A DNA stretch of 64,000 nucleotides. Origin: a bacterium (lineage in GTDB: Bacteria > UBA8248). Numbering within the stretch: position 1 is the first letter of the stretch; every line of letters starts with the position of its first letter. The stretch covers positions 2,800,769 to 2,864,768 of the forward strand of contig OZ244713.1 in NCBI GenBank assembly GCA_965218885.1, written 5' to 3'. The translations under genes were made by a program, and so were the position numbers. The notes beneath the pieces were generated by a model, which was given only the letters and a program-made list of their open reading frames with translations, was not told the origin of the DNA and made no database searches. Of the stretch, positions 20,424 to 49,761 are shown piece after piece.

Positions 20424-23372
20424 CTAGGGGGTTGCTGCCGCAGTGTTTGGCGGAGGATTGCTCAGAAGTATGTCGGTTCGACGATTCTTGGCGCGCCCCT
20501 CTTCTGTGTCGTTACTCGCCACCGGGCGGTAAAAAGAGTAGCCGGTCGCCGACATGCGTTTAGGCGATATGTTTTTCGATTCCAGGAATTTGACGACGGC
20601 AACGGCGCGTGCGACGGAGAGTTCCCAATTCGTGGGATAGCGACCGAGCAGATTGCCTTTAATCGGCTGATTATCCGTATGTCCTTCTATCCGTATTATT
20701 TTGTCTTTTTGTTTTTGGAGAAATTCCGCAACTGTTGAGAGCGCCTCGATACCTTTTTTTCTGATCTCGGCGCTTCCCAGATCAAACAAAAAATTGTTCA
20801 CGAAGGTGACGCGGAGCAAATCCTTGGTCCGTTCCAGCGTGATGGATTGTTTCTTTAACCTGCTGTTCATCTCGTTCAGATCTGATGCGAGCTTTTGGGA
20901 GCGTTCGGCTTCTTCTTGCGCTTTTTTCTCGAGTATTTTTGAGCGCGCAATCGCCAGCGTGTGTTTTTTGATCGTTTCCGACAGGCTCAAGTTTGTCTGG
21001 TCCAGCTTGTTTTTGATGAGTTCGGCCACGGAGGTTTTCTCCGAGATGAGTTGGCTCATCTCTTGAACCTGGGCCCGCAGAAGCTCTCCGGCTTTTACCA
21101 GACTCCCTATCTTTTGAGTTTTGTTTCTCGCGAGTTCGGCATTTCGCGCGTTTGATTCTTCGGCCTTGGCTCGCGTCTTGCGTTCACTCTCGAGGGTTTT
21201 CTGGATTTGTTCGAGCGCGAGTTCGAGGTTTCGGGCTTTCGTTTTTTCCTGCTCGATATCGGTATTTTTCTCTGCGATGAGTCGGCTCATCTCCTGAACC
21301 TGGGTGTTGAGGATTTCCCTGGTTTGTTCGAGGCGCTTCATTTCTTCGGCTCGATTTTTAGCGAGCATGGCGTCTTGCGCATTTGATTTTTTAGCTTTCG
21401 CCGATGACTTGCGCTTATCGGCGATATTGCGCTTATCTGCTTTTTTCTGCTCGGTCGTGATGAGTTGATCCATCTTACGGACTTGCGCCTCGATGATTTC
21501 CCTGTTTTTTTCGAGACGCTTCATTTCTTCGGCTCGATTTTTAGCGAGCATGGCGTCTTGCGCATTCGATTTTTTAGCTTTCGCCGGTGACTTGCGCTTA
21601 TCGGCGATATTGCGCTTTTTCATTTTTTCCTTCTCGGTCGCGATGAGTTGATCCATCTTACGGACTTGCGCCTCGAGGATTTCCCTGTTTTTTTCGAGAC
21701 GCTTCATTTCTTCGGCTCGATTTTTAGCGAGCATGGCGTCTTGCGCATTCGATTTTTCTGGCTTCGCAGACACCTTGCGCTGATCGGCGAGATTGCGCTT
21801 ATCTGCTTTTTTCTGCTCGGCCGCGATGAGTTGATCCATCTTTCGAACTTGGTTCTCGAGAATTCCCCGAACTTTTTCGAGACGCTTTAACTCTTCAGCC
21901 TGGCTTCTGGCCAGTTCGAGGTTTCGTTTATTTGATTTTTCAATCTCCACTCGGGTCTTGCGCTCGGTTTCAAGGGTGGCCTGGATTTGTTGGAGCGCGT
22001 GTTCGAGACTTTGGGTTTTCGCTTTTTCCTGTTCGATGTCGGCAGTTTTCTCGGCGATGAGTTGCCGCATATTGCTCACTTGGGCCTCGAGACGCTCTCT
22101 CGCTTTTTCGAGGCGCTGTATTTCTTGGGCCCGTTTACCGGCGATTGCGAGGTTTTGTTTGCTTGATTTTTCCGCCTCGGCGCGCATCTTGCGCTCAGTT
22201 TCAAGGGTTGTCTGTATACGTTTGAGGGCGATTTCGAGGTTCTGGGTTTTTGTTTTTTCCTGCTCGATGTCGGTGCTTTTCATCGCGATGAGTTGGCGCA
22301 TCTTTGCGACTTGAGCTTGGAGAAGCGCTCGGACTTTTTCGAGACGCTTGGTCTCTTCGGCCAGGCTGGCGGCGATTTCGAGGTTCTGCTTGTTTGATTT
22401 TTCCATATCGGCGCGCATTTTGCGCTCAGTTTCAAGGGTTGCCTGGATTTGTTTGAGCGCGCGTTCGAGATTCTGGGTTTTCTTTTTCTCCTGTTCGATG
22501 TCGGTGCTTTTCATCGCGACGATTTGGCTCATCTTTTGGACCTGGGTCTCTAGTCGCTTTATCTCTTCGCCCCTGTCGCCGGCGATTTCGATGTTTTGTT
22601 TATTCGCTTTTTCCGCCTCGGCTCGCGCTTTGCGTTCGTTATCGAGGGAGCTGTTGATTATGTCGAGTGTGGATTTGAGGTTTCGGATTTCGGTTTTTTC
22701 CTGCTTGATATCAGCGCTTTTTTCGTTGATGAGTCGGCTCATCTCTTCAGCCCGTTTGCTTGCGATTTCGATGTTTTGTTTATTCGCTTTTTCCGCCTCG
22801 GCTCGCGCTTTGCGTTCGTTATCGAGGGAGCTATTGATTATGTCGAGTGTGGATTTGAGGTTTCGGATTTTGGCTTTTTCCTGCTCGATGCCGGTGGTTT
22901 TCTCGGCGACGAGTCGGCTCATCTCTTTGGCCTGGGTCTCGAGGCGCTGTATCTCTTCGGCCCGCTTGGCCGCGAGCCCGGTGTTTTGTTGGTTTGCCTT
23001 CTCCGCCTCGGCGCGCATCTTGCGTTCGTCATCGAGGGCCGTCTGGATTTGCTTGAGCGTCATTTCGAGGCCTTGGATTTTGGCTTTTTCCTGCTCGATG
23101 CCGGTGGTTTTCTCCGCGATGAGTCGGCTCATCTCCTGAATCTCGGTTTTGGCGGAGGTCCCCTCTTTTTCGAGTCGGGACTGCAAACCCTTCATCTGCT
23201 GCTCTATTGTTTTGAAACGAAGGTTCAGCTTGGCGGTATTGTCTTTTTCCGCTGAAAGATCGATCTCTCGTTTTTGCAGCTGATTTTTCGTTGAATGGGA
23301 TTGCTGAGCGAAATATCCTGTTCCACCAAGGAGTACAGCGATAATCGCCCCTATGGTGATGCGAATGCCCAA
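20424..23372 (-). CDS. Giant coiled-coil protein with N-terminal membrane anchor and C-terminal MotB/OmpA-like peptidoglycan-binding domain
   Basis: Hydrophobic ITIGAIIAVLLGGTGY; about 820 aa of heptad-rich repeats; LFDLGSAEI, IEGHTDN, NWELSVARA, GYSFYRPVASNDTEEGRAKNRR. Confidence 0.85.
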   Translation of the reverse strand: MGIRITIGAIIAVLLGGTGYFAQQSHSTKNQLQKREIDLSAEKDNTAKLNLRFKTIEQQMKGLQSRLEKEGTSAKTEIQEMSRLIAEKTTGIEQEKAKIQGLEMTLKQIQTALDDERKMRAEAEKANQQNTGLAAKRAEEIQRLETQAKEMSRLVAEKTTGIEQEKAKIRNLKSTLDIINSSLDNERKARAEAEKANKQNIEIASKRAEEMSRLINEKSADIKQEKTEIRNLKSTLDIINSSLDNERKARAEAEKANKQNIEIAGDRGEEIKRLETQVQKMSQIVAMKSTDIEQEKKKTQNLERALKQIQATLETERKMRADMEKSNKQNLEIAASLAEETKRLEKVRALLQAQVAKMRQLIAMKSTDIEQEKTKTQNLEIALKRIQTTLETERKMRAEAEKSSKQNLAIAGKRAQEIQRLEKARERLEAQVSNMRQLIAEKTADIEQEKAKTQSLEHALQQIQATLETERKTRVEIEKSNKRNLELARSQAEELKRLEKVRGILENQVRKMDQLIAAEQKKADKRNLADQRKVSAKPEKSNAQDAMLAKNRAEEMKRLEKNREILEAQVRKMDQLIATEKEKMKKRNIADKRKSPAKAKKSNAQDAMLAKNRAEEMKRLEKNREIIEAQVRKMDQLITTEQKKADKRNIADKRKSSAKAKKSNAQDAMLAKNRAEEMKRLEQTREILNTQVQEMSRLIAEKNTDIEQEKTKARNLELALEQIQKTLESERKTRAKAEESNARNAELARNKTQKIGSLVKAGELLRAQVQEMSQLISEKTSVAELIKNKLDQTNLSLSETIKKHTLAIARSKILEKKAQEEAERSQKLASDLNEMNSRLKKQSITLERTKDLLRVTFVNNFLFDLGSAEIRKKGIEALSTVAEFLQKQKDKIIRIEGHTDNQPIKGNLLGRYPTNWELSVARAVAVVKFLESKNISPKRMSATGYSFYRPVASNDTEEGRAKNRRTDILLSNPPPNTAAATP
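21300..21850 (-). repeat. Three intragenic 183-bp tandem units (61 aa)
   Basis: TCGGCTCGATTTTTAGCGAGCATGGCGTCTTGCGCA recurs at 21346, 21529 and 21712. Confidence 0.9.
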
Positions 23373-27158: not shown

Positions 27159-27282
27159 GCAAACGGTGGCATTCTCGCCTTCATCATGAGTCTGTTGAGG
27201 GCGAGAAACTCTCGAATCATTTTGCCGCCATCATGGTTGTTCCAACGAGAGGGATTCTCGTTTCGTGAGGAGATTCAGGATT

Positions 27283-27633
27283 ATGCCGAAGACAGTGGAT
27301 TGGTATTATCATCGCTCCGGCTGAAAGACTTGCGCTAAAACGCAAGCGTTTCTTGCGGAGAACGGTATCGGGGTGTCCGAGCAGGCCAGCTCCAAAAAAG
27401 ACGTGGTGGATGAAGGCAACGTCGATTCTGTTCTGGATGGCGTGGCGGATGTGTATTCGACCAGGGGCAGAAAGGTGATCCACCTGAACATCGAAGAAGA
27501 AAAACCTGCGCGAGAAGACGTGCTGGCTCTTTTGATGGGTCGTTCAGGCACGCTCAGAGCCCCTGTCATCAAATATCAAAGCACCCTCATCGTCGGCTTC
27601 GATGAAGAAACATACGCACAGGTTTTGAAATAA
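27283..27633 (+). CDS. ArsC/Spx-like thioredoxin-fold selenoprotein (UxxC), 116 aa
   Basis: ATG 27283 with SD GAGGAG/AGGA gives MPKTVDWYYHRSG-[TGA 27322-27324]-KTC-AKTQAFLAE, in frame with the 27373..27633 fragment (GRSGTLRAP..LIVGF, ArsC-like). Hairpins follow the UGA. Confidence 0.85.
27325..27364 (+). promoter_or_regulatory. Putative bacterial SECIS for the ArsC-like gene
   Basis: After the UGA: CTTGCG-CTAAAA-CGCAAG, or alternatively CGTT(T)CT-TGCGG-AGAACG with a bulged U and G in the loop about 30-34 nt downstream. Confidence 0.5.
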
Positions 27634-27648
27634 ATCGTATCCGGTGAC

Positions 27649-29103
27649 TTAGAGGGCCAACTGGCCCTGGGTGGGTTCCGCTCAGCAAAACCACGATTCG
27701 GTCAAACGAGGCGGGCGGATTCGATCGGGCGCGAAGGCGGCCTTTGCCTGCGCCTGATCGGGACGCTCCAGAATATCGGCCGCCAATTCGCGAATCCTCA
27801 TGAATGTTGTGGCGGCATCCTCGAGGCGCGTTGCTGCATCCTCGGCGAGGAGGAGCGCTTCTTCGTGCAGTTTGTCCATTCTCGCGTCCGGATGCTCCCA
27901 GCGGTAGATGAAATTCTCGGCGTCGAGTTCCTTGATGTATCTCGTCATGTGGGGGGAGTCGAGCAAATGGGAACCCGGCGGCGCCAGAAGCCGGATGGCC
28001 ATCTGAATGGGGTCCACCTCGTCGATCAATGTGTATTCTTCAATGAAATCCAGTAGATAGAAATAATCCTGCGCGCTTGTCCAAGGCGTGAATGCGACCA
28101 GAGATGGTCTGATGGAAACATTCGCCTCCCGGGCGGCTTTCACCACACGAAAGACATCTTCTTTGGTGTGTCCCTTATCCAGATGAGCGAGCACGAGGTC
28201 GCTCAAGGACTCCATCGCTGTGACGAAAAACGCGCACCCGTTTTCCCGGAATTCAGGCAGAAGAGCCTCATGTTTGATCAGGTGCTCTACTTTGGCCGTA
28301 AAATCGAAGGAAAGGGCGGGGAATCTCTCGTGTAAGGCGCGAGCGACTCGAATCGCATGAGACGGGCCATTCAGAAAATCCGGGTCCGCAAAGGTGATGT
28401 GGCGCGCGCCTTGCGCGGCCAGATCTTCGATATCCTCCAGAACCTTCTCTTGGGGCACGATGAAGAAACGGCCTTCATACACTGGCGGAATGGGGCAATG
28501 CAGGCACAAGTGTTTGCAGCCCCGGCTCGCCTCGACGGCCCCGGCGGGATAGTGGTTCTCCCCGCTTATGAGATGCGCGTATGCCTGAAGCGCAGGCAAT
28601 CCCTCTCGCTCGGGCTTGAGCAAGGGAATTTTTTCGAGATACGGGCCCGATGTGTGCTCTCTCGTGGCTGCGCCGGGAACCTCAAGGATGCCGGAGGGTC
28701 GGGACAGCTCTTGAACGAGCTTCACGAGCGGCCATTCGAACTCGCCACCTATGGCCGAATCCGCGCCGTTTTCGAGAAGATAGTCCTTGTTGAGCAGACC
28801 ATAGAGGCCATAAAAGCAAATATGGCACTTCGGATTCGTCTCACGTATTTTCGCCGCCACTTCTACGCCGAGCCTGAGCGCCGTGTGCATCGGCACGCTG
28901 ATGCCGACGAATTTCGCATTCGCTATTTTCTCTTGGGAGAAATCCTCCGCCGCCACGTCCATCGCCCAGGGCTGAAAGCCCGCTTCGCGCAGAAAAGCCA
29001 GGGGCGAGGCGACGGCGAGGGGCTGGTGTCCCAACTCGTAGCAGGAGATGAGAACGACGGCGCCGGGTGATTGCCACTTGGATGTCTTATCGTTTCGACT
29101 CAC
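27649..29103 (-). CDS. CUAEP-tail radical SAM selenoprotein with N-terminal B12-binding-like domain, 484 aa
   Basis: EASRGCKHLCLHC (CxxxCxxC). The frame continues past TGA 27684-27682 as ESWFC-U-AEPTQGQLAL-TAA (27651-27649). SECIS-like hairpin downstream of the UGA. Confidence 0.88.
27653..27668 (-). promoter_or_regulatory. Putative bacterial SECIS for the radical SAM gene
   Basis: AGGGCC-AGTT-GGCCCT starts 14 nt after the UGA; loop GU at +21/+22, comparable to the E. coli fdhF-type SECIS geometry. Confidence 0.7.
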
Positions 29104-29807: not shown

Positions 29808-29955
29808 TTCCTTGCGTCGAGAGCTTCGGCCGCCTCCGCCATGCGGAATTGACGAGGTTTTCGGCGCCGAGAAATTTATCGAAATAGAGTGGAAATTTAT
29901 CGGAATTTATCGAATTTTTCATGAATTTTCACAAAAAAATTCGGAGCACACGTTC

Positions 29956-32586
<2,631 letters not shown>

Positions 32587-32653
32587 ATACTTCAGGGCGG
32601 CGGTGGAGCTTTGATTCGTGTCCATAAAACATGAAAGCAAGCGAATGTAAAAA

Positions 32654-32892
32654 ATAGTTGAAAAATTCGGGAGTTGTATACATGACTCGGCCTTGGGATT
32701 CCGGGTTTTACATTCGAAAGGGAACGATGTAATCACTCCCCCCTTGAGCAGCCGTAGAGACAGGTCTCGACCTGTCCCTACCAAAGACGGTCCATGCGCT
32801 TTCTGGTTCGTCATTCCGGCTTTCGCCGGAATGACGGTGAACATTCTCGATTGGGGGAGCAACAACCCCTTGGGGGATTTTTCAAAAACTCA
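32654..32892. repeat. Degenerate third copy of the composite repeat family
   Basis: TAGTTGAAAAA (32654), ATCACTCCCCCCTTGAG, GTAGAGACAGGTCTCGACCTGTCCCTAC (32754-32781), GTCATTCCGGCTTTCGCCGGAATGAC (32810-32835), CAACAACCCC and TTTTTCAAAAACTC. Confidence 0.7.
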
Positions 32893-32938
32893 ACACCATT
32901 GGATCCGGCTGGAAAATTAAGAACTATATAAAGGAGAG

Positions 32939-33226
32939 TTGGCAATGCTTTCGATGAATATATCAGCAGCTACGGCGTTAAGTCAGTTGAAAAGTATTCT
33001 ACACCAGACTTTGCAGAACGGTAGGGCAAAATATTGGAATACTAACAATAACAATGAAGCAGAAGAGCAGAGTTTCTATTGGTTGTTTTGTTGGGCTAAA
33101 ACTACAAGAAGGGGTTGTGGCCCTTATGCCGCCCAAGCAATGGAAGCGCTAAGAGAGATTTTTGATGACGCCCTAATTCAACAGACGTCATTACAATATG
33201 CTAGGGATTCACGCGACTATCGATAA
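32939..33226 (+). CDS. Hypothetical AT-rich orphan protein (about 95 aa)
   Basis: SD AAAGGAG before TTG 32939/ATG 32945; open frame in an AT-rich island; no recognisable motif. Confidence 0.5.
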   Translation: MAMLSMNISAATALSQLKSILHQTLQNGRAKYWNTNNNNEAEEQSFYWLFCWAKTTRRGCGPYAAQAMEALREIFDDALIQQTSLQYARDSRDYR

Positions 33227-33262
33227 AACTTTAATTTTGTATCCCGATAAGGAGAAAGATTG

Positions 33263-35176
33263 ATGTCGAAAGTAATCGGAATCGATTTGGGCACCACCAA
33301 CTCGGTCGTCTCGGTCATGGAGGGTGGGCAGCCTACGGTCATCGCCAACCAGGAGGGCAACCGCACGACGCCCAGCGTCGTGGCGTTCACCGACGATGGG
33401 GAGAAGCTCGTCGGCCTCGTGGCCAAACGCCAGGCGGTGACGAACCCGACCAGGACCATCTATTCCGTCAAGCGCTTCATGGGCAGGCGATTCGCCGAGG
33501 TGCCCGAGGAAGTCACCATCGTGCCCTACGAGGTCGTGAAATCGGACAACGGCGACGCGCGCATCAAAATCGACGGCAAGGAACACGCCCCGCCCGAGAT
33601 ATCTGCGAGCGTTCTGCAAAAGCTCAAGCAGGCCGCGGAGGATTATCTGGGCGAGAAGGTGAACGAGGCGGTCGTCACGGCGCCTGCGTATTTCAACGAC
33701 AGCCAGCGCCAGGCGACGAAGGACGCCGGAAAAATCGCCGGTCTCGACGTGAAGCGCATCATCAACGAGCCGACGGCGGCCGCTCTCGCCTACGGACTCG
33801 ACAAGAAGGCGGATCAGACCATCGCGGTGTATGACTTCGGCGGCGGCACGTTCGACATCTCCATCCTGGAGGTGGGGGACAACGTGGTCGAGGTGAAGGC
33901 CACGAACGGCGATACGCATCTGGGCGGCGACAACATCGACCACCGGATCATCGAGTGGATGGCGGAGGAGTTCAAGAAGGATCAGGGAATCGACGTCTCG
34001 GGCGATCCCATGGCGCTTCAGCGACTGCGCGAGGAATCCGAAAAGGCGAAGATCGAACTGTCGAGTTCGATGGAGACGACCATCAACCTGCCGTTCATCA
34101 CGGCGGACGCCTCGGGTCCCAAGCACCTGAACTTGAAGCTCACGCGCGCGAAACTCGAGCAGTTGACGGGCGATCTGGTGGAGAAGACGCTGGCTCCCTG
34201 TCGGCGCGCGCTCGATGACGCCAAGCTCCAGCCCGGAGACATCGACGAGGTGGTGCTGGTGGGCGGCTCGACGCGGATGCCGCTGGTGCAGGATGCGGTG
34301 GAGAAATTTTTCGGAAAAGAACCCCACAAGGGCGTGAATCCCGATGAGGTGGTGGCGGTCGGCGCGGGCGTTCAGGGCGGCGTGCTCGCCGGAGACGTGA
34401 AGGACGTGTTGCTGCTGGACGTCACCCCGCTTTCCTTGGGGATCGAGACGCTGGGCGGCGTGTCCACCAAGCTCATCGAGCGCAACACGACGATACCGGT
34501 CAAGAAGAGCGAAACCTTCTCCACCGCGGCGGACAACCAGCCCTCCGTCGAGGTGCACGTCCTCCAGGGAGAGCGCGAGATGGCCACGGGCAACCGCTCG
34601 CTGGGCAAGTTCCATCTTGTCGGCATTCCTCCCGCGCCCCGGGGCGTTCCCCAGATCGAGGTGACGTTCGACATCGACGCCAACGGCATCGTGAACGTCT
34701 CCGCCAAGGACCTGGGCACCAGCAAGGAGCAGGCGATCACCATCACGAGTTCGAGCGGCCTCTCCGAAGATGAGATCAACAACATGGTGTCCGAGGCGGA
34801 TGAGCACGCCGAGGAGGACAAGAAGCGGCGCGAGGCCGTCGAGGCGAGAAACATGGCCGACAGCATGGCGTACAACACGGAGAAGATGCTCAAGGAGAAT
34901 GAGGGCAAGGTTTCGGCCGAGGACAAGAAAGAGATAGAAGACGCCATCGCCGCGCTCCGGGCGGTTCTGGAGAAAGAGGACGCGACGGTGGATGAAATCA
35001 CAGAAGCGCAAGCAAAACTCGAGGCGGCCTCGCACAAGCTCGCGCAGGCGATGTACGAGCAGGCGAGTCAGGCGGACGCCGCCGACGCCCCGGAGTCCGG
35101 CGGCGGGGAGAACGGCGCGCCCGCGGGCGACGTCGTGGATGCGGAGTTCGAGGAAGTGGATAAGGACAAGCCCTAA
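33263..35176 (+). CDS. dnaK: Chaperone DnaK
   Basis: [53 protein letters not shown] tail. Confidence 0.99.
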
Positions 35177-35200
35177 AAGTCTTGCCCGCATGAGGATGGT

Positions 35201-36139
35201 ATGCCCAAGCGTGATTATTACGAGGTGCTGGGGATCGACCGAAGCGCTTCGGAGGTGGAACTGAAACGCGTCTTCAAGAAGCTGGCGCGCAAGTATCACC
35301 CCGACGTCAACCCGGGGGATGCGAATGCGGAGGAGCGCTTCAAGGAGATCAGCGAGGCGTACGCCGTTATCTCGGACCCGGAGAAGCGCAGAAAATATGA
35401 CGCCATGGGGCATGCCGCCTTCGGCGGGGGCAGCCCCTGGGGCGAGGGAGCCCCGCCCGGAATGGAAGACATCCTGCGCGAAATTTTCGGCGGAGTTTTC
35501 GGAGGAGCGCGCGGCGGCGCGGGACGTGGCGGCTTCCACGCGCAGCCCCAGGCCCCCCGGCGGGGTCAGGATGTGAATTACTCGATGGAGATCGGTTTTG
35601 ACGATTCCCTCAAAGGACTCAACACCACCATCACCGTGCCCAAGACCACGCAAGAGAACGGGAAAATCCAGCACACGACAGAGCGCATTCAGGTGAAAAT
35701 ACCGCCCGGCGTCTCGAACGGCTCGCGCATTCGCCTGGCGGGCAAGGGAGAAGCCTCCCTGAACGGGGGGCCGCAGGGGGACCTCTTCATCGTCACGAAG
35801 GTGCGGGAGCATCCTTTCTTCGAGCGAAAAGGGGATAATCTGTATCTCGAGCTTCCCGTCAGTCTCGGCGAGGCGCTGCTCGGCGCGCGCGTGGAAATCA
35901 ACACCTTCGAGGGGGCCACGAAGATGACGATTCCTCCCTCGACCCAGAACGACCAGGTTTTCAGGCTTCCGGGAAAGGGCGCTCCGAAGCTCAAGGGTTC
36001 GGGCAAGGGCGATTTGTTCGTCAGGGTCCAGGTACTGCTGCCGGAGAAGATGGATGAGGAAAGCAAGGAGATCGTCCGCGAACTAGAGAGGCGCAACCCC
36101 ACGTCGCCGCGAGCGAACATGACGGGCGTGAGCATATAG
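35201..36139 (+). CDS. DnaJ-class co-chaperone without zinc finger (CbpA-like)
   Basis: J domain with HPD, G/F region, DnaJ C-terminal domains, no CxxCxGxG repeats. Confidence 0.92.
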   Translation: MPKRDYYEVLGIDRSASEVELKRVFKKLARKYHPDVNPGDANAEERFKEISEAYAVISDPEKRRKYDAMGHAAFGGGSPWGEGAPPGMEDILREIFGGVFGGARGGAGRGGFHAQPQAPRRGQDVNYSMEIGFDDSLKGLNTTITVPKTTQENGKIQHTTERIQVKIPPGVSNGSRIRLAGKGEASLNGGPQGDLFIVTKVREHPFFERKGDNLYLELPVSLGEALLGARVEINTFEGATKMTIPPSTQNDQVFRLPGKGAPKLKGSGKGDLFVRVQVLLPEKMDEESKEIVRELERRNPTSPRANMTGVSI

Positions 36140-36199
36140 TGAAGGACGCAGGCATGACGGGAGCAGGCGATCTGATGACGAGAGGCCCAGGAGAAGGCA

Positions 36200-36607
36200 A
36201 TGGCGCGTAGAAGCGTGAGAAACGGGCGCTACACCATCAGCGCGGTGGCCGAGATGTTCGGGGTTCACCAGCAGACGCTCAGGTTGTATGAGCGCCAGGG
36301 CCTCATCGACCCGGCCCGCAGCGAGGGCAGGACGCGCTATTACTCCGAAGATGATCTGGAGCGGCTCGAAATTATCATGGCGCTCACGCGGGACATGGGC
36401 GTGAATCTGGCGGGCGTGCAGGTCATCATCGAGCTTCGCGAGAAGCTCATGCGTGCGCTCGAGCGCCTGGGCGAACTCGAGGAATTGATCGAGAGCCGGG
36501 CGTTCGAGGATTTTCGCGAGCAGATGAGCAACGCGACGCCCGATATGCAGGCCATGATCCCCGCGTTCTCCGCCAAGCTCGTGCGTTTCAGGAGGAGAGG
36601 GAAGTGA
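36200..36607 (+). CDS. hspR: MerR-family heat-shock repressor HspR-like
   Basis: [51 protein letters not shown]; inside the dnaK-dnaJ operon. Confidence 0.85.
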
Positions 36608-37464
36608 ACACGAATTCCATCAAATCCTTTTTGCTGCTCGGATTGTTGACGGGGCTGATTCTGCTCATCGGCAATCTCCTCGGCGGCACGACCGGGCTGG
36701 TCATCGCCCTGGTGCTCGCGGTGGGCATCAACGGATACAGCTATTGGTATTCGGACAAAATCGTTCTCGCCAGCACGGGCGCGAGCGAGGTGCTCCCCGA
36801 ACACGCGCCGGAACTCTACGGCATGGTGGCGGACCTGGCGCGGCGCGCGAACCTGCCCATGCCGCGTGTATACGTCATTCCCGAGGATGCGCCGAACGCC
36901 TTCGCCACGGGCAGAAACCCCGAGAACGCCGCCGTCGCCTTCACCGAGGGGATTTTGCAGGATCTGAACAGAGAAGAACTCGAAGGCGTGGCCGCGCACG
37001 AACTCGCCCACATCAAGAATCGGGACATCCTGCTGAGCACCATCGCCGCCTCCCTGGCGGGCGCCATCATGTATCTCGCGCAGATGGCGCAGTTCGCCGC
37101 GTTTTTCGGCGCCTACGGCAGGGGCGACGATGAGGAGGGCGGTGGCGGAGGCTTGCTGGGAATCATCGTCGCCGCGATAGTGGCCCCCATTGCGGCGACG
37201 CTGCTTCAGATGGCGGTGAGCCGCTCGCGCGAGTATCTTGCCGACGCCACGGGCGCGCAAATCGCGGGCACGCCGGTCGGGCTGGCGAACGCCCTGCATC
37301 GCCTGGATGAGGCCGCCCATCGCGAGGAACTCCACTGCGCGAGCGAGGCGACGGCCCACATGTATATCGTCAACCCGCTCTCGGGCGGGGGGATGGCGAG
37401 ACTTTTCAGTACGCACCCGCCGATGGAGGAGAGGATTCGGCGGTTGATGGAGATGAGATACTAG
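36604..37464 (+). CDS. htpX: Zinc metalloprotease HtpX
   Basis: [17 protein letters not shown] (HExxH), [21 protein letters not shown]; GTG overlaps the hspR stop. Confidence 0.96.
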
Positions 37465-37486
37465 GTTCTGGGGAGGAAGTCGTTTC

Positions 37487-38179
37487 ATGAAAGCGAAGGA
37501 TGTGAAAGTCGATACGGAGGGCGGCGATGGCGTGAAGGCCGAAGCCGCAGAGCCGGTGGACGCAGGCCGCGCGGAAGAAGAAGTCAAGGAGAAGCCGCGC
37601 GTCGTGGACAGGCGGCGCGTCCGCGAAGACGGCGAGATGAGCGAGGAGGGGGCCGGGGAGGCCGAAGAAACCCCGCGCGTGCCCGCCTACGTGGAGCAGC
37701 TCCAGGCGAAGGTAGCCGCCGCCGAGGAGAAGCTCAGAGAGCACATCGAGAAAATCGACAAGGATACGGCCGATTTCAGGGCCCGGCAGGAGCGCGAGAT
37801 GGAGCGCAGGACCCGGGAGGTGAAAAAACAGGCCGTATCGGGCTTTTTGAGCATCGCCGATGATCTGGCGCGCGCCACGGCGGCCGTGGACGGCGGAGCC
37901 TCCCAGGGGGAGGAGGGCGGAGTTCTCGAAACCCTGGTGCAGGGGGTGCGGATGATTCAGGGCCGGTTCTTTCAGGAACTCTCCAACCTGGGGGTGGAGC
38001 CTCTCTCTGCGATGGGCGTCGCCTTCAATCCCGAAGAACACGAGGCGGTGCGCATGGTCGAGGTGAGCGATGAGGCGCTGGACGGCATGGTGGTGGAGGA
38101 ACTGGCTTGCGGCTATAGGCTGGGCGACGCGGTTCTAAGACCCGCGCGCGTCTCGGTGGGCAAGTATGCGGGCGAATAG
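37487..38179 (+). CDS. grpE: Nucleotide exchange factor GrpE
   Basis: ADFRARQERE, FNPEEHEAV, GYRLGDAVLRPARVSV. Confidence 0.93.
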   Translation: MKAKDVKVDTEGGDGVKAEAAEPVDAGRAEEEVKEKPRVVDRRRVREDGEMSEEGAGEAEETPRVPAYVEQLQAKVAAAEEKLREHIEKIDKDTADFRARQEREMERRTREVKKQAVSGFLSIADDLARATAAVDGGASQGEEGGVLETLVQGVRMIQGRFFQELSNLGVEPLSAMGVAFNPEEHEAVRMVEVSDEALDGMVVEELACGYRLGDAVLRPARVSVGKYAGE

Positions 38180-38257
38180 CCGGTCTCGCGCCCTTGAACC
38201 AGATTCGTGCTCATAGTATCGTCGCGTGTTTTTCGATTTTCGGGGTGAAGGGAAAGC

Positions 38258-39406
38258 ATGAGCAAGCGTGATTACTACGAAGTGCTGAGCGTAGGCCGCG
38301 ACGCGGGCGACGCCGAGATCAAGAAGGCGTATCGCACGCTGGCGATGAAGCATCATCCGGATCGCAACCCGGGCGATGCGAAGGCCGAGGAATTGTTCAA
38401 GGAAGCATCCGAGGCCTACCAGGTGTTGAGCGAGTCCGAGAAGAGGAGCGCGTATGATCGCTTCGGCCACGAGGGGCTCCGGGGAATGGGGCATCAGGGT
38501 TTTTCGAGTTTCGACGATATCGTCTCCTCGTTCGGGGATGTTTTCGGGGATTTGTTCGGCGGCGTTTTCTCCGGCGGGCGCGCGCGCCGCGACGGTCCGC
38601 GCAAGGGCCGGGACCTTGCCTATCAACTGGAGATGACGTTCGAGGAAGCGGCGACGGGCATCGAGCGCGAGCTCGAGTTCGAGCGGCCCACGGAATGCGT
38701 CTATTGCGGCGGCAGCGGGGCCAAGTCGCCCGATGCGGTTCGCGAATGCCCATCCTGCGGCGGCAGCGGCCAGAGGTCCTACCGCCAGGGTTTCATGACT
38801 TATTCCACCACCTGCTCGGATTGTGGCGGCGCAGGCAGGCAAATCCTCGAGCACTGCGCGGAATGCGATGGGGCCGGACGCCGTCTGGAGCAGAGGAAGG
38901 TGAAGGTCAAGATTCCCCCCGGCGTGGACGAGGACGCCAGACTGCGTCTTCGCGAAGAGGGAGAAGGAGGCGCCAAGGGTGGGCCGGCGGGCGATTTGTT
39001 CGTCGTCGTCTCCTTGCTCGCGCATGAGGAATTCGAACGCAATGGGGCGGATGTGGCGAGCCAGGTGTATGTTTCGTTCTCACAGGCGGCGCTGGGCGAC
39101 ACGGTGAAGGTGAGGACGCTCTATGGAGAATCCGAACTCGAGATTCCCAAGGGAGTGCAGTCCTCGGATGTTCTCAGGCTGAGGGGCGAGGGATTCCAGC
39201 GCCTCGGCAGGAAAGGGCGCGGCGATCATATGTTTTTGGTTCACGTCCAGACGCCGACGAAATTGACGGCGGACGAGGAAAGACTCTTTGGCGAATTGTC
39301 GGAGATCGAACGTGAAAAGGCGGAAAAAAATGGGGCTGGAAGAGCCGAGGAAAATGGCGCCGGGAAAAAGGGTATTCTCGGCAAGTTGAGTTCTCTTTGG
39401 GGATAG
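38258..39406 (+). CDS. dnaJ: Chaperone DnaJ (zinc-finger type)
   Basis: HPD, four CxxCxGxG repeats, C-terminal domains. Confidence 0.97.
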   Translation: MSKRDYYEVLSVGRDAGDAEIKKAYRTLAMKHHPDRNPGDAKAEELFKEASEAYQVLSESEKRSAYDRFGHEGLRGMGHQGFSSFDDIVSSFGDVFGDLFGGVFSGGRARRDGPRKGRDLAYQLEMTFEEAATGIERELEFERPTECVYCGGSGAKSPDAVRECPSCGGSGQRSYRQGFMTYSTTCSDCGGAGRQILEHCAECDGAGRRLEQRKVKVKIPPGVDEDARLRLREEGEGGAKGGPAGDLFVVVSLLAHEEFERNGADVASQVYVSFSQAALGDTVKVRTLYGESELEIPKGVQSSDVLRLRGEGFQRLGRKGRGDHMFLVHVQTPTKLTADEERLFGELSEIEREKAEKNGAGRAEENGAGKKGILGKLSSLWG

Positions 39407-44710: not shown

Positions 44711-45349
44711 CTAAAGTATCCTGGCGATGTATTTTCTGTCCGAGAAGGCGAATTCGCGTATCCATTTGGCGAGTTCACGGTACAGATGCGTTTCCGCGTC
44801 CTCTTCCATGCTCGCCGTGTAGATGGGCATCCAGCCCATGAGGTGCTCATCCATGAACCGCGCGCTTAAAGATAGTTTCTCCCGCGCGAGGTCGGCGCTT
44901 CCATCTTCCCAGGCGTCGGCTTCTTCCGTGGCGAGCCGGGCCAGGAATTCGAGCTCTACGCTTAAATGATCCATCGCCAGGACGCTGGGGTGGGCGAGAG
45001 CGGCGCTGCCGCGTCCGGGGTTGTAGCCGCAGGCCCGGTAGAAATCGGCCACCTCGTCCGTCCTCTTCGAATTCAGATGTCCGCTTTCATCCATCAGGGC
45101 GGCTTCGTAGGGAGGAGAGGAGAGCACGAACAGGTTTGTGAAATCGACCCTGAGCTTTTGGAGGGCTTCTTCGGTGATATCGAATTTTTCCGGGAACAAG
45201 AACGGGTAGTTCTCTTGTAGGAACGCCGCGAGTTCCGAATCGAGCGGGTCGAGCATCGCCCGGGCCTGCACCCGGTAGAGTTGCGCGCGGAGCCTCGCCT
45301 GTTCGGCGTTTTCAGAGTGTGAGGCGCGGCGCTTCCAGCGAAGACTCAT
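44711..45349 (-). CDS. TorD/DmsD family redox-enzyme maturation chaperone
   Basis: ATG 45349 overlaps the oxidoreductase stop; PPYEAA, VADFYRACG, DHLSVELEFL, FMDEHLMGW. Confidence 0.9.
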   Translation of the reverse strand: MSLRWKRRASHSENAEQARLRAQLYRVQARAMLDPLDSELAAFLQENYPFLFPEKFDITEEALQKLRVDFTNLFVLSSPPYEAALMDESGHLNSKRTDEVADFYRACGYNPGRGSAALAHPSVLAMDHLSVELEFLARLATEEADAWEDGSADLAREKLSLSARFMDEHLMGWMPIYTASMEEDAETHLYRELAKWIREFAFSDRKYIARIL

Positions 45350-48222: not shown

Positions 48223-48240
48223 AATCTTGAAACTCCCGGA

Positions 48241-49761
48241 TTACGAAAGGGGAACGGCCTGTCCGGCCTTCACCCAGATTTTATCCCAAAGATACGCGCC
48301 CGCCATGGCCATGATGCCGGCCAGCACCGCGCCAAAACCGCCGAAGCCGCCCGCCCAAAGCAGGAGCAGTGGAACGAGGCATCCCACGATGACGGCGCCT
48401 CCCCAGAAATCGTTCTTGAACGGTCCGCTCGTCAGCAGGTGGATCGCCCGCTCATGCGCCACGGAGCCGAAGCGATGCACGAGAATCGAGAACACGAGGA
48501 TGCACAGGTGCAGCAGGATGAGAATGGCGAGCAGCCCGCCCAGGATGTTCAGGACGGACGCTTGATTCGCGATGGGGAAGAGCGTGGCGAAGAGAAGCAG
48601 GATCGCCGCGCCCTTCAAGCCCGATTGTACGCCGATGTCGATAGTGTTCTCGCTTCCTTTCCACAAATCGCGCGCCGAGGCCTGGGCGAAGAAAAAGCCG
48701 GTATATATCGATGCGAGTACGCCCATGACGATGGTGGGCCACAGGATGAGGCCCATGAAGCCCGACGCGCCGAACATGGCGCCAAGCACCCAGAGTAGGG
48801 TGAGGGCGCCGTCGAGCGCGATGAACCACGTGCCCCACGCCATCCAACTGCCCCAGTTCGAGCGGAGCATGATGTAGTAGAACCGCTCGGGCCGCTTGAG
48901 GTCGGTGACGAGCACCGCTCCCGTGGCGGCCAGAAGGATTCCGCTCAGCGCGGGCATCCAGAAGGAGAACAGCGAACTTTTGAAGCCGAACGCCCACAGA
49001 AACAGGCTGATGACCAAAAGACCCGTGCTCGCGCCCTTGGTCAGCAGATAGGTGATGATCTTCGTCTCCCAGGGAACCTCGTGGAAGGTGTCGTAAACGG
49101 TGCGGCTATCGCCTGGCTTGTTCTCCCACTCGGGCACGACGTCTTCTCTTTCCATGTCCATCTCGCCCTGCTTGTAGATGCCCGACTGGCCCGCTTCCGT
49201 GGGATCCAGGAGTTGGCGGCTGCCCTCGAGATAATAGATGTTGGGCGCCGTGTTGTATTCGGGCTTTCTCACCTGGTAGGGGCGCTGCGTGGTGAGTTTC
49301 GATATCTTCGAATCCGCATCCTCCACGTCGCCGAACACGCGGCACTGCGTGGGGCAGACCACCACGCAGGCGGGCTCCAGGCCCACTTCGAGGCGGTTCG
49401 CGCAGAAATTGCATTTCTCCGCCGTCATCGTGTTGGGGTCGATGAAGAGTTGATCGTACGGACACGCCGCGATGCAGGATTTACACCCGATGCACCAATT
49501 CGGGTCCAGGTCCACGATTCCGTCGCTGCGTCTGAAAAGCGCCTTCGTCGGGCAAATGTTCTGACAGGGCGCATCGTCGCATTGATTGCACAGGACGGGC
49601 AGAAATTCCCTTCTGGTGCTCGGGAAGGCGCCTTTTTCAACCTCTTTCACCCAGCATCGCCAGACGCCGATGGGAATATCGTGTTCAGATTTACACGCGA
49701 TTGTGCAAGCATGACATCCGATGCAGGATTCGAGGTCGATCGCCATTGCATACTTGGGCAT
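48241..49761 (-). CDS. Fused 4x[4Fe-4S] ferredoxin and NrfD/PsrC-type membrane anchor
   Basis: CIGCHACTIAC, CNQCDDAPC..CP, CIGCKSCIAACP, CNFC..PAC..CP; then LVTDLKRPERF and SWMAWG TM region. Confidence 0.92.
   Translation of the reverse strand: MPKYAMAIDLESCIGCHACTIACKSEHDIPIGVWRCWVKEVEKGAFPSTRREFLPVLCNQCDDAPCQNICPTKALFRRSDGIVDLDPNWCIGCKSCIAACPYDQLFIDPNTMTAEKCNFCANRLEVGLEPACVVVCPTQCRVFGDVEDADSKISKLTTQRPYQVRKPEYNTAPNIYYLEGSRQLLDPTEAGQSGIYKQGEMDMEREDVVPEWENKPGDSRTVYDTFHEVPWETKIITYLLTKGASTGLLVISLFLWAFGFKSSLFSFWMPALSGILLAATGAVLVTDLKRPERFYYIMLRSNWGSWMAWGTWFIALDGALTLLWVLGAMFGASGFMGLILWPTIVMGVLASIYTGFFFAQASARDLWKGSENTIDIGVQSGLKGAAILLLFATLFPIANQASVLNILGGLLAILILLHLCILVFSILVHRFGSVAHERAIHLLTSGPFKNDFWGGAVIVGCLVPLLLLWAGGFGGFGAVLAGIMAMAGAYLWDKIWVKAGQAVPLS

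What the first reader, a model, noticed from the sequence alone, without database searches (positions are those of the whole stretch)
27283..27633. Hidden selenoprotein: ArsC-like thioredoxin fold with a UxxC active site
Seen: the ORF track starts this protein at 27373, but an SD-preceded ATG at 27283 gives DWYYHRSG-TGA-KT-C. The TGA occupies the first Cys position of the CxxC motif of ArsC/Spx-like proteins, and a hairpin with a bulged U and a G-containing loop lies about 30 nt downstream. Without recoding the product would be a 13-aa peptide. An ArsC-family (seleno)protein group is known from protein-family collections; to my knowledge its substrate is not established.
Basis: partly seen in the sequence, partly recalled or inferred. 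Interest (0 to 1): 0.72.

Follow-up and report, generated by a model that had tools for sequence, protein, structure and literature searches.

The report
Known ArsC/Spx-like selenoprotein gene, mis-annotated short
The in-frame TGA is almost certainly a real selenocysteine codon in a small redox protein, but the protein belongs to a selenoprotein family that is already catalogued (function still unknown), so the call is correct and ordinary.

Summary
ATG 27283, preceded by GAGGAG, opens a 116-codon frame that ends at 27633. Its only interruption is TGA 27322-27324, the first position of a U-x-x-C motif.

With U read as C, the product scores 119.8 bits (cut-off 85) on NCBIfam NF041106, 'ArsC family (seleno)protein'.

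- **Homologues:** of 80 homologous loci plus the window, 75 carry TGA and 6 carry TGC at this codon.
- **SECIS:** every TGA form, and no TGC form, has a 5-9 bp hairpin with a GUU or GUA loop core, 22 nt after the UGA in the window. In the window it is 27341-27357. It is kept through register shifts and compensatory changes, and it is far more stable than synonymous recodings.
- **Sequence quality:** independent assemblies and metatranscriptome contigs keep the TGA.
- **Genetic code:** TGA is an ordinary stop elsewhere in the window.
- **Second selenoprotein:** the convergent neighbour is a second catalogued selenoprotein, a CUAEP-tail radical SAM enzyme.

The family corresponds to 'Arsenate reductase 2, UxxC' of Zhang and Gladyshev (2008). 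It is closer to Spx than to true ArsC. Its pairing with the radical SAM gene is synteny confined to Nitrospinota-type lineages. Novelty: already known. Interest: low.

The parts
27267..27272 (+). Shine-Dalgarno-like GAGGAG, 10 nt before the ATG
   Evidence: Read directly from the sequence.
27283..27633 (+). Full selenoprotein ORF: 116 residues, MPKTVDWYYHRSG-U-KTC..., stop TAA at 27631-27633
   Evidence: Translation with TGA=U. NF041106 at 119.8 bits against a cut-off of 85. Pfam ArsC PF03960. The AF2 model has mean pLDDT 87.3.
27322..27324 (+). UGA selenocysteine codon (U14), first position of the U-x-x-C motif
   Evidence: TGA in 75 and TGC in 6 of 81 aligned genes. It aligns with Spx Cys10. 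It is unchanged in DNA contigs and RNA contigs.
27331..27333 (+). TGC codon for Cys17, the resolving cysteine of U-x-x-C
   Evidence: Invariant in the 57-sequence alignment A3. In all 81 genes it is Cys except in one locus, L042, which has TAC.
27341..27357 (+). Bacterial SECIS core: 6-bp stem CGCAAG/CUUGCG with loop CGUUU (27347-27351). G27348 and U27349 are the conserved loop bases.
   Evidence: Folding energy -7.3 kcal/mol. 94.9% of cells are paired and 0 of 500 shuffles reach this. A hairpin is present in 75 of 75 Sec forms and is not distinguishable from background in 6 of 6 Cys forms. The third base of the GNG codon is G in 75/75 Sec forms against 0/6 Cys forms.
27329..27346 (+). Alternative hairpin CUUGCG/CGCAAG that shares its 3' arm with the SECIS. 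It is mutually exclusive with the SECIS and is probably melted by the ribosome sitting at the UGA.
   Evidence: Folding energy -7.9 kcal/mol. 85.9% of cells are paired, but covariation is no better than shuffles. The terminator scan flagged it as terminator-like.
27373..27375 (+). GTG used by gene callers as a false start (86-aa truncated product, P0001)
   Evidence: The codon is ATA, GTA, GTT or GTC in close relatives (columns 58-60 of the alignment), so it is not a conserved start.
27172..27207 (+). 15-nt inverted repeat after the upstream cyclase-family gene. It is a probable terminator, which suggests that the selenoprotein gene has its own promoter.
   Evidence: This reading is inference only.
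27649..29103 (-). Context, not part of the gene: a convergent CUAEP-tail radical SAM selenoprotein. Its own UGA lies at 27682-27684 and its SECIS palindrome at 27653-27668.
   Evidence: NF040546 at 659 bits against a cut-off of 500. The TGA and hairpin are kept in 18 of 18 Nitrospinota-type loci.

Best explanation
The gene at 27283-27633 encodes a 116-residue selenoprotein of the ArsC/Spx/YffB thioredoxin-fold superfamily. It is a member of NCBIfam NF041106, 'ArsC family (seleno)protein'.

**Recoding (shown by comparison):**
- UGA 27322-27324 is decoded as selenocysteine.
- A minimal SECIS hairpin lies 16 nt further on (27341-27357; 6 bp; loop CGUUU with the conserved G-U).

**Recoding (inferred from the established bacterial mechanism):**
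- When the ribosome places the UGA in its A site, it has melted the competing upstream hairpin.
- The SECIS then forms at the mRNA entrance and recruits SelB-GTP-Sec-tRNA(Sec).
- Sec is inserted in competition with release factor 2.

**Protein function (inferred):**
- U14 sits at the N-terminus of helix 1, as the first Cys of a CxxC redoxin does. It is the attacking nucleophile.
- It forms a reversible selenenylsulfide with C17, which makes the protein a small thiol/selenol-disulfide oxidoreductase.
- The invariant R11 and R92-A-P94 loop lie next to the redox centre.
- The substrate is unknown.
- The residue pattern and profile scores place the protein nearer to Spx-type CxxC proteins than to arsenate reductase.
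For: - **Family:** NF041106 at 119.8 bits against a cut-off of 85, over the full model length. Pfam ArsC also matches.
- **Sec/Cys pairing:** 75 TGA and 6 TGC at the aligned codon in 80 genome loci plus the window. The loci are from Nitrospinota, Methylomirabilota, Acidobacteriota, Planctomycetota, Gemmatimonadota and others. The full-length database homologues P0049 and P0059 carry C-x-x-C.
- **Coding upstream of the TGA:** in 16 close relatives the codons for DWYYHRSG differ from the window's mostly by synonymous third-position changes.
- **SECIS stability:** all 75 Sec forms have a hairpin here, with mean -8.9 kcal/mol against -3.0 for synonymous recodings. In 71 of 75, at most 5% of recodings fold as well. 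The 6 Cys forms do not differ from their recodings.
- **SECIS conservation:** the stem is kept through CCCAGG/CCUGGG, GCCCAAG/CUUGGGC and GCUCAAG/CUUGAGC variants and through a one-base register shift.
- **Loop G:** it is the third base of a GNG codon in 75/75 Sec forms and 0/6 Cys forms.
- **Geometry:** it fits the bSECIS consensus of a 3-9 nt loop, a 4-16 bp stem, G in loop position 1-2 and 16-37 nt spacing.
- **No sequencing error:** two contigs at 63x and 32x match the window exactly, and related strains keep the TGA.
- **Transcription:** metatranscriptome contigs from two studies run unbroken across the ATG, the TGA and the SECIS.
- **Standard code:** TGA is a normal stop for ClpB and other genes in the window, and it is the true stop of many family members.
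- **Second recoded gene:** a second catalogued selenoprotein gene with its own conserved UGA and GUU-loop hairpin lies 15 bp away.
- **Fold:** the AF2 model (pLDDT 87.3) finds Spx, YffB and ArsC-related proteins as its best PDB matches. U14 and C17 align with Spx C10 and C13.
Against: - None of them lies among the roughly 28 window ORFs I scanned against NCBIfam. About half of the roughly 59 candidate ORFs were not scanned. ARAGORN and Rfam found only tRNA-Leu.
- The window's core hairpin folds at -7.3 kcal/mol. That is just short of the -7.5 limit of the published bSECIS model and weaker than in other phyla.
- A competing hairpin (27329-27346, -7.9 kcal/mol) is the minimum-energy fold of the naked RNA.
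- There is no protein-level evidence (no 75Se labelling, no mass spectrometry) for any member of the family.
- The redox mechanism is inferred only from homology to CxxC proteins.
- The fold match to Spx and ArsC is moderate (TM about 0.56). The model's middle part is a beta-hairpin rather than a helical subdomain.
Confidence: 0.9

Rival explanations
1. The TGA is a true stop. On this reading the locus is either a decayed gene or encodes only the 86-residue product from GTG 27373, as current gene calls have it.
For: Standard ORF calling gives exactly this product. About 58 of the 69 database homologues are annotated as products of 63-102 residues. The Sec machinery was not verified.
Against: - The 86-residue product would lack strand 1, the redox motif and helix 1 of the fold.
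- GTG 27373 is not conserved even in close relatives.
- The codons before the TGA are under purifying selection.
- The TGA and hairpin are kept in 75 genes across phyla, which decay would not do.
- The annotated start positions of the truncated products vary (63 to 102 residues), as expected of gene-caller artefacts.
Confidence: 0.03
2. The UGA is read through, but not as selenocysteine. Either the code is reassigned (UGA = Trp or Gly), or Cys or Trp is inserted by near-cognate decoding.
Against: - TGA ends ClpB, the luciferase-like gene and many other clear genes in the window.
- TGA is the genuine stop of dozens of family members.
- A hairpin with SECIS features accompanies the TGA forms only.
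- The aligned residue in the TGC forms is Cys, which is the classic Sec/Cys pair.
Confidence: 0.03
3. The protein is a genuine selenoprotein that works as an arsenate reductase of the R773 ArsC (glutaredoxin-coupled) type.
For: - The Pfam ArsC domain matches.
- The Y-H-x-x-x-[C/U] motif aligns with YHNPAC of R773 ArsC, so that U14 corresponds to Cys12.
- The literature names the family 'arsenate reductase 2' or 'arsenate reductase-like'.
Against: - The equivalog model for ArsC (TIGR00014) does not appear among matches up to E = 0.01. The next-best models are all Spx/MgsR.
- The profile comparison with R773 ArsC reaches only 20% probability and places no Arg opposite Arg60.
- In my reading of the HMMER alignment to Spx, the position equivalent to ArsC Arg94 is a nearly invariant Ala93.
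- A resolving Cys17 is present as in Spx. R773 ArsC has no such residue.
- No ars genes are nearby.
Confidence: 0.1
4. The gene is one half of a selenium-dependent metalloid-processing system. The other components would be the convergent CUAEP-tail radical SAM selenoprotein (an ArsL relative) and the IscA-type carrier.
For: Two UGA-recoded genes lie 15 bp apart tail to tail. The radical SAM enzyme's nearest named relative is the arsinothricin enzyme ArsL. The arrangement is kept in 17 of 17 Nitrospinota-type genome loci and in one metagenome locus, L082.
Against: - None of the other 63 loci of the ArsC-like gene, from other phyla, has the radical SAM gene within 3 kb.
- Only 1 of 80 metagenome loci of the radical SAM family has an ArsC-like neighbour.
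- The radical SAM family has at least 8,000 sequence clusters, far more than the ArsC-like family.
- The genes are convergent, so they are not one operon.
- Within one clade, conserved order cannot be told apart from shared ancestry.
Confidence: 0.06
5. The protein is an Spx-like redox-sensing regulator that binds RNA polymerase, rather than an enzyme.
For: Spx is the best match in solved structures by both sequence and fold, and the CxxC positions coincide. TIGR01617 (Spx/MgsR) is the second-best family.
Against: - TIGR01617 scores 44 bits against a cut-off of 75.
- The protein is 15 residues shorter than Spx.
- Its model replaces much of the helical subdomain with a beta-hairpin, and the TM-score is only about 0.56.
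- From general knowledge: that subdomain is the part of Spx that contacts the RNA polymerase alpha C-terminal domain, and Spx regulators are characterised only in Firmicutes. The host phyla here are all different.
Confidence: 0.04

Closest known systems
NCBIfam NF041106 'ArsC family (seleno)protein'. The 2026 catalogue (PMC13188914) lists it as 'Arsenate reductase-like protein, UxxC' and cites the GOS study (PMC2398784). That study's only UxxC ArsC row is 'Arsenate reductase 2' (cd03032).
   Same: The match covers the full model length and lies above the cut-off. The U/C-x-x-C motif is at the same place, the protein is of the same size (about 115 residues) and the SECIS lies directly downstream. 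The function is uncharacterised in the family as well.
   Different: Nothing of substance. This copy belongs to a Nitrospinota-type clade whose SECIS loop is CGUUU (an Ala GCG codon) rather than the G/A-GUU-C/U loop of other phyla.
Spx (Bacillus subtilis; PDB 1Z3E, 3GFK, 6GHB)
   Same: It is the best solved relative (E = 4e-7). C10-x-x-C13 aligns with U14-x-x-C17, and the L-R-x-P loop is shared. The core is thioredoxin-like.
   Different: Sequence identity is 20-25% in the structural alignments and the TM-score is about 0.56. The window protein has no C-terminal tail, its predicted middle subdomain differs, it uses Sec instead of Cys, and it occurs in other phyla. It falls below the cut-off of TIGR01617.
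R773/E. coli ArsC arsenate reductase (PDB 1I9D; TIGR00014). Its Sec form is 'Arsenate reductase 1, UxxS' of the Sargasso Sea and GOS studies.
   Same: Same Pfam superfamily. The nucleophile lies in the same Y-H-x-x-x-C/U context.
   Different: The ArsC motif is UxxS/CxxS with no resolving Cys. The Arg60/Arg94/Arg107 triad is not recovered here, and the profile match is weak. It is listed as a separate selenoprotein family in the catalogue.
E. coli fdhF-type bacterial SECIS, and the bSECIS consensus model of Zhang and Gladyshev as described in PMC13188914
   Same: A hairpin in the coding sequence just 3' of the UGA. G followed by U lies at the start of a small apical loop, and the spacing of 22 nt is within the 16-37 nt range.
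   Different: The element is minimal: 6 bp, with no conserved lower stem and no bulged U. The core energy of -7.3 kcal/mol is marginally weaker than the model's -7.5 limit.

Membership tests
NF041106 ArsC family (seleno)protein | Whole-protein HMM score at or above the curated cut-off of 85 bits | tested here: met
   119.8 bits, E = 7.3e-35, residues 5-111 on model positions 1-107 of 107 (U entered as C).
NF041106 ArsC family (seleno)protein | Sec or Cys at the first position of an N-terminal U/C-x-x-C motif | tested here: met
   U14-K-T-C17 in the window. 75 genes have TGA and 6 have TGC at this column, among 80 loci plus the window.
Bacterial selenoprotein gene (general) | A SECIS hairpin 3' of the UGA that fits the consensus: 3-9 nt loop, 4-16 bp stem, G in loop position 1-2, 16-37 nt spacing | tested here: met
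   5-nt loop CGUUU, 6-bp stem, 22-nt spacing. Criteria taken. Conserved with compensatory changes, and present only in Sec forms.
Bacterial selenoprotein gene (general) | SECIS folding energy of -7.5 kcal/mol or lower | tested here: inconclusive
   The core hairpin folds at -7.3 kcal/mol in the window. Relatives in other phyla range from -6.1 to -13.4, with a mean of -8.9.
Bacterial selenoprotein gene (general) | The genome encodes selA, selB, selD and tRNA-Sec | not testable with these tools
None of these genes was found in the part of the 64-kb window that I scanned. Indirect support comes from a second recoded gene next door. Earlier, unchecked notes report three more selenoprotein genes in this genome.
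Bacterial selenoprotein gene (general) | Cys-containing homologues aligned with the UGA | tested here: met
   L017, L019, L022, L031, L034 and L076 have TGC. P0049 and P0059 have CxxC.
Arsenate reductase ArsC, R773 type (TIGR00014) | Match to the equivalog model | tested here: not met
   TIGR00014 is absent from the matches up to E = 0.01.
Arsenate reductase ArsC, R773 type (TIGR00014) | The Cys12 nucleophile | tested here: met
   U14 aligns with Cys12 in the hhalign comparison with R773 ArsC, although that comparison reaches only 20% probability.
Arsenate reductase ArsC, R773 type (TIGR00014) | The Arg60/Arg94/Arg107 triad | tested here: inconclusive
   No Arg stands opposite Arg60 in the low-probability hhalign alignment, which does not reach Arg94 or Arg107. 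Through the Spx alignment the Arg94 position maps to Ala93. That mapping is my own reading.
Spx/MgsR regulators (TIGR01617) | HMM score at or above the cut-off of 75 bits | tested here: not met
   44.3 bits.
Spx/MgsR regulators (TIGR01617) | Binding to the C-terminal domain of the RNA polymerase alpha subunit | not testable with these tools
   This needs an experiment. The structural match is only moderate (TM about 0.56).

The most novel reading that the evidence does not exclude
In the sponge- and marine-associated Nitrospinota-type clade, the UxxC ArsC-like selenoprotein and the convergent CUAEP-tail radical SAM selenoprotein (an ArsL relative), together with the adjacent IscA-type carrier, might form a selenium-dependent pathway that reduces a metalloid or chalcogen and builds a carbon-metalloid bond. 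On this reading the small selenoprotein would deliver or recycle the substrate bound at the Cys-Sec tail of the radical SAM enzyme.
Probability: 0.05. Interest if true: 0.6.

Novelty: already known. Interest (0 to 1): 0.15.

Why it matters
The main value is as an annotation correction. This gene and about 58 of its 69 database relatives are stored as products of 63-102 residues that lack the active site. Any functional or structural inference drawn from those records is therefore wrong.

The comparison also gives a clean, quantified example of a minimal bacterial SECIS: 5-9 bp and a GUU or GUA loop core. It is maintained by codon choice (GNG, CTT) and by register-shifting compensatory changes, and it is absent from the Cys forms.

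The biological question that stays open is what this widespread UxxC protein reduces. It occurs in Nitrospinota, Methylomirabilota, Acidobacteriota, Planctomycetota and Gemmatimonadota. This window does not make that question more answerable.

Tried and rejected
- **Sec machinery:** ARAGORN and Rfam on the window found only tRNA-Leu and no SECIS family. NCBIfam scans of about 28 of roughly 59 candidate window ORFs showed housekeeping, chaperone and molybdoenzyme genes but no sel genes. Earlier notes of this scan do not locate the sel genes either.
- **The minimum-energy fold of the naked RNA:** it uses the upstream hairpin at 27329-27346. I rejected that hairpin as the SECIS. Its loop, CUAAAA, has no G, it starts only 4 nt after the UGA, and its covariation is no better than shuffles.
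- **A conserved lower stem or bulged U:** RNAalifold finds only the core stem.
- **Functional linkage to the radical SAM neighbour:** tested in both directions and rejected as general.
- **Other conserved neighbours:** only a TIGR01777 (YfcH) oxidoreductase recurs, immediately upstream in 11 of 63 loci from other phyla. The window does not have it in that position.
- **True arsenate reductase:** the profile comparison with R773 ArsC is weak.
- **Global UGA reassignment:** rejected on stop-codon usage.

Full report
**1. Observation**

GAGGAG at 27267-27272 precedes ATG 27283. Thirteen sense codons (MPKTVDWYYHRSG) lead to TGA at 27322-27324, followed by AAG ACT TGC (K-T-C). The frame stays open to TAA at 27631-27633.

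Read with TGA=U, the product has 116 residues. The mechanical ORF list starts the gene at GTG 27373, giving 86 aa. That is also how the protein collection holds it (P0001).

**2. Family**

With U entered as C, the protein matches NCBIfam NF041106 'ArsC family (seleno)protein' at 119.8 bits against a curated cut-off of 85, over the whole model. It also matches Pfam ArsC PF03960. The next families are Spx/MgsR models, all below their cut-offs. The arsenate reductase equivalog is not among the matches.

By sequence, the nearest solved structures are Spx proteins (E = 4e-7). U14 and C17 fall on Spx C10 and C13, and the L-R-x-P loop aligns.

**3. Homologues**

- A search of the protein collection returned 69 relatives. 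About 58 of them are products of 63-102 residues that begin after the TGA position. The two of full length, P0049 and P0059, read HRPGC-x-x-C.
- A scan of one genome per species returned 80 loci. Read in frame, 75 of the 81 genes (window included) have TGA at the aligned codon and 6 have TGC.
- The TGA forms come from MAGs labelled Nitrospinota, Methylomirabilota/Rokubacteria, Acidobacteriota, Planctomycetota, Gemmatimonadota, Eisenbacteria and others.
- Many of these genes end with TGA as their genuine stop. In the window, TGA ends ClpB and other clear genes. The code is therefore standard and the recoding is local.
- Among the 16 closest relatives, the codons for DWYYHRSG before the TGA differ from the window's mainly by synonymous third-position changes. 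This is expected only if that stretch is translated as part of a larger protein.
- The GTG at 27373 is not conserved in the same relatives.

**4. SECIS**

Two mutually exclusive hairpins share the arm CGCAAG (27341-27346).

- *The upstream hairpin (27329-27346).* This is the minimum-energy fold of the naked RNA. Its loop, CUAAAA, has no G. It starts only 4 nt after the UGA. Its pairing across the family is no better than shuffled controls.
- *The downstream hairpin (27341-27346 with 27352-27357, loop CGUUU).* It is paired in 94.9% of cells, and none of 500 shuffles reaches the observed pairing or covariation.

The fixed-register count understates the conservation of the downstream hairpin. Several lineages keep the hairpin in a register shifted by one base, using other codons: ACC CAG GAG TTC CTG GGA, GCC CAA GAG TTC TTG GGC and GCT CAA GAG TTC TTG AGC.

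Each gene was then folded on its own:
- All 75 Sec forms give a hairpin centred on GUU or GUA. The mean is -8.9 kcal/mol, against -3.0 for 300 synonymous recodings of the same peptide. In 71 of 75, at most 5% of recodings fold as well.
- The six Cys forms average -4.2 against -2.8 and are not distinguishable from their recodings.
- The loop G is the third base of a GNG codon (Ala, Gly or Glu). It is G in 75 of 75 Sec forms and in 0 of 6 Cys forms.

The geometry fits the published bacterial consensus: 5-nt loop, 6-bp stem, G then U at loop positions 2-3, and 22 nt from the UGA. One reservation is that the window's core energy of -7.3 kcal/mol is marginally weaker than the model's -7.5.

**5. 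Reads**

- Logan contigs of two DNA runs cover 27200-27700 at 63x and 32x without a single difference. These may be the source samples of the assembly.
- Related strains in other studies differ at several third positions but not at 27322-27324.
- Contigs from four metatranscriptome runs of two studies are 90-99% alike. They run unbroken over 27172-27457, 27263-27570, 27270-27424 and 27288-27560, that is, across the ATG, the TGA and the SECIS.
- This shows that RNA covers the whole recoded frame in close relatives. The usual caveat applies that such libraries can contain DNA.

**6. Sec machinery**

The window holds only tRNA-Leu. No sel genes appeared among the roughly 28 of about 59 candidate ORFs that I scanned.

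The indirect evidence is good. The convergent neighbour at 27649-29103 is NF040546 'CUAEP/CCAEP-tail radical SAM (seleno)protein' at 659 bits against a cut-off of 500. It has its own UGA inside W-F-C-U-A-E-P and a GGGCC-AGUU-GGCCC hairpin, and both are kept in 18 of 18 Nitrospinota-type loci. Earlier notes of this scan report an OsmC-like and two UGSC selenoprotein genes elsewhere in the same genome. I did not check those notes.

**7. What the protein is likely to do**

- An AlphaFold2 model built on 57 family members has mean pLDDT 87.3. It shows a thioredoxin-like core, with U14 at the start of helix 15-26.
- Its best PDB matches are Spx, an S. mutans Spx-like protein, B. fragilis and Brucella 'ArsC-related' proteins, and YffB. 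All have TM-scores of only about 0.5-0.57.
- The model's middle segment (56-69) is a beta-hairpin, where Spx and ArsC have helices.
- Invariant residues in the 57-sequence alignment are W7, Y9, R11, U/C14, C17, G89, L91, R92, P94, L102, V104, G105, F106, E108 and Y111.
- A profile comparison with R773 ArsC reaches only 20% probability. It aligns U14 with Cys12 and places no Arg opposite Arg60.

My reading is a small selenol/thiol-disulfide oxidoreductase that cycles through a U14-C17 selenenylsulfide, with an unknown substrate. Arsenate reduction and Spx-like regulation are minor possibilities.

**8. Context**

- The order MarR, luciferase-like monooxygenase, cyclase-family protein, ArsC-like selenoprotein, then (convergent) radical SAM selenoprotein and IscA, then ClpB is kept in 16 close genome loci. 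It is kept in part in a more distant Nitrospinae MAG.
- None of the other 63 loci has the radical SAM gene within 3 kb.
- In the reverse test, only 1 of 80 metagenome loci of the radical SAM family has an ArsC-like neighbour. That family has at least 8,000 clusters.
- The adjacency is therefore lineage-specific synteny and is not evidence of a shared pathway.
- The only neighbour that recurs across phyla is a TIGR01777 (YfcH) oxidoreductase. It lies directly upstream in 11 of 63 loci, next to both Sec and Cys forms.

**9. Comparison with what is known**

[quoted passage not shown] It credits the 2008 Global Ocean Sampling study. That study's only UxxC ArsC row is 'Arsenate reductase 2, cd03032, UxxC', with 42 sequences and 238 Cys homologues. 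This family is distinct from 'Arsenate reductase 1', the UxxS form of the Sargasso Sea study.

**10. Verdict**

- This is a genuine selenoprotein gene with about 0.9 confidence.
- It is a member of an already catalogued family of unknown function.
- The useful by-products are a corrected gene model and a well-supported minimal SECIS.
- Interest is low.

Noticed in passing
window 27649-29103 (- strand): The convergent neighbour is a CUAEP-tail radical SAM selenoprotein (NF040546, 659 bits). Its apparent stop at 27682-27684 is a UGA followed by AEPTQGQLAL and TAA. Its SECIS is the palindrome AGGGCC-AGUU-GGCCCU at 27653-27668. The TGA and hairpin are kept in 18 of 18 related loci, and 61 of 80 metagenome homologues also have U in the tail.
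   Followed up: partly
window 27659-27700: Summed contig depth in the DNA metagenome runs jumps from about 63x to about 3,200x over this 40-nt stretch. The extra contigs differ by 4-6 letters and run on into unrelated sequence. The stretch encodes the C-terminal ...RLTESWFC-U-AEP part of the radical SAM gene and the start of its SECIS. It appears to be near-identical at the DNA level across many organisms or paralogues in the sample.
   Followed up: no
window 27329-27357: The 5' arm of the SECIS (CGCAAG) can instead pair with CUUGCG at 27329-27334. That hairpin is followed by CGUUUCUU and was flagged as terminator-like. The alternative pairing is possible in 86% of family cells but shows no covariation. 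Whether the switch has any regulatory role is unknown.
   Followed up: partly
L017, L018, L019, L022, L024, L027, L028, L032, L042, L045, L071 (about 100-150 nt upstream of the ArsC-like gene): A TIGR01777 (YfcH) family oxidoreductase of about 300 residues lies directly upstream on the same strand in 11 of 63 loci from other phyla. It occurs next to both Sec and Cys forms. It is the only neighbour that recurs across phyla and is a possible functional partner.
   Followed up: partly
window 27283-27633 (model m87f49c58221c): The AlphaFold2 model (pLDDT 85-90 in this part) puts a beta-hairpin at residues 56-69, where HMMER aligns helices of Spx. TM-scores to Spx, ArsC and YffB are only about 0.5-0.57. 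NF041106 may be a structural variant of the ArsC/Spx fold.
   Followed up: no
window 45346-49761 (- strand): A 958-residue molybdopterin-oxidoreductase-like protein and a 506-residue 4Fe-4S subunit lie side by side. Both score far below the cut-offs of every named family (PhsA, DmsA, Fdh, ArrA, TtrB, DsrO), so this is an unassigned member of the complex iron-sulfur molybdoenzyme group.
   Followed up: no
window 29812-39406: A heat-shock and proteostasis cluster: ClpB, DnaK, two DnaJ-type proteins and HtpX lie within 10 kb of the selenoprotein pair.
   Followed up: no
window 20424-23372 (- strand): A 982-residue ORF matches known families only in its last 180 residues or so (OmpA/MotB-type peptidoglycan-binding domain). 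The N-terminal 800 residues have no family match.
   Followed up: no
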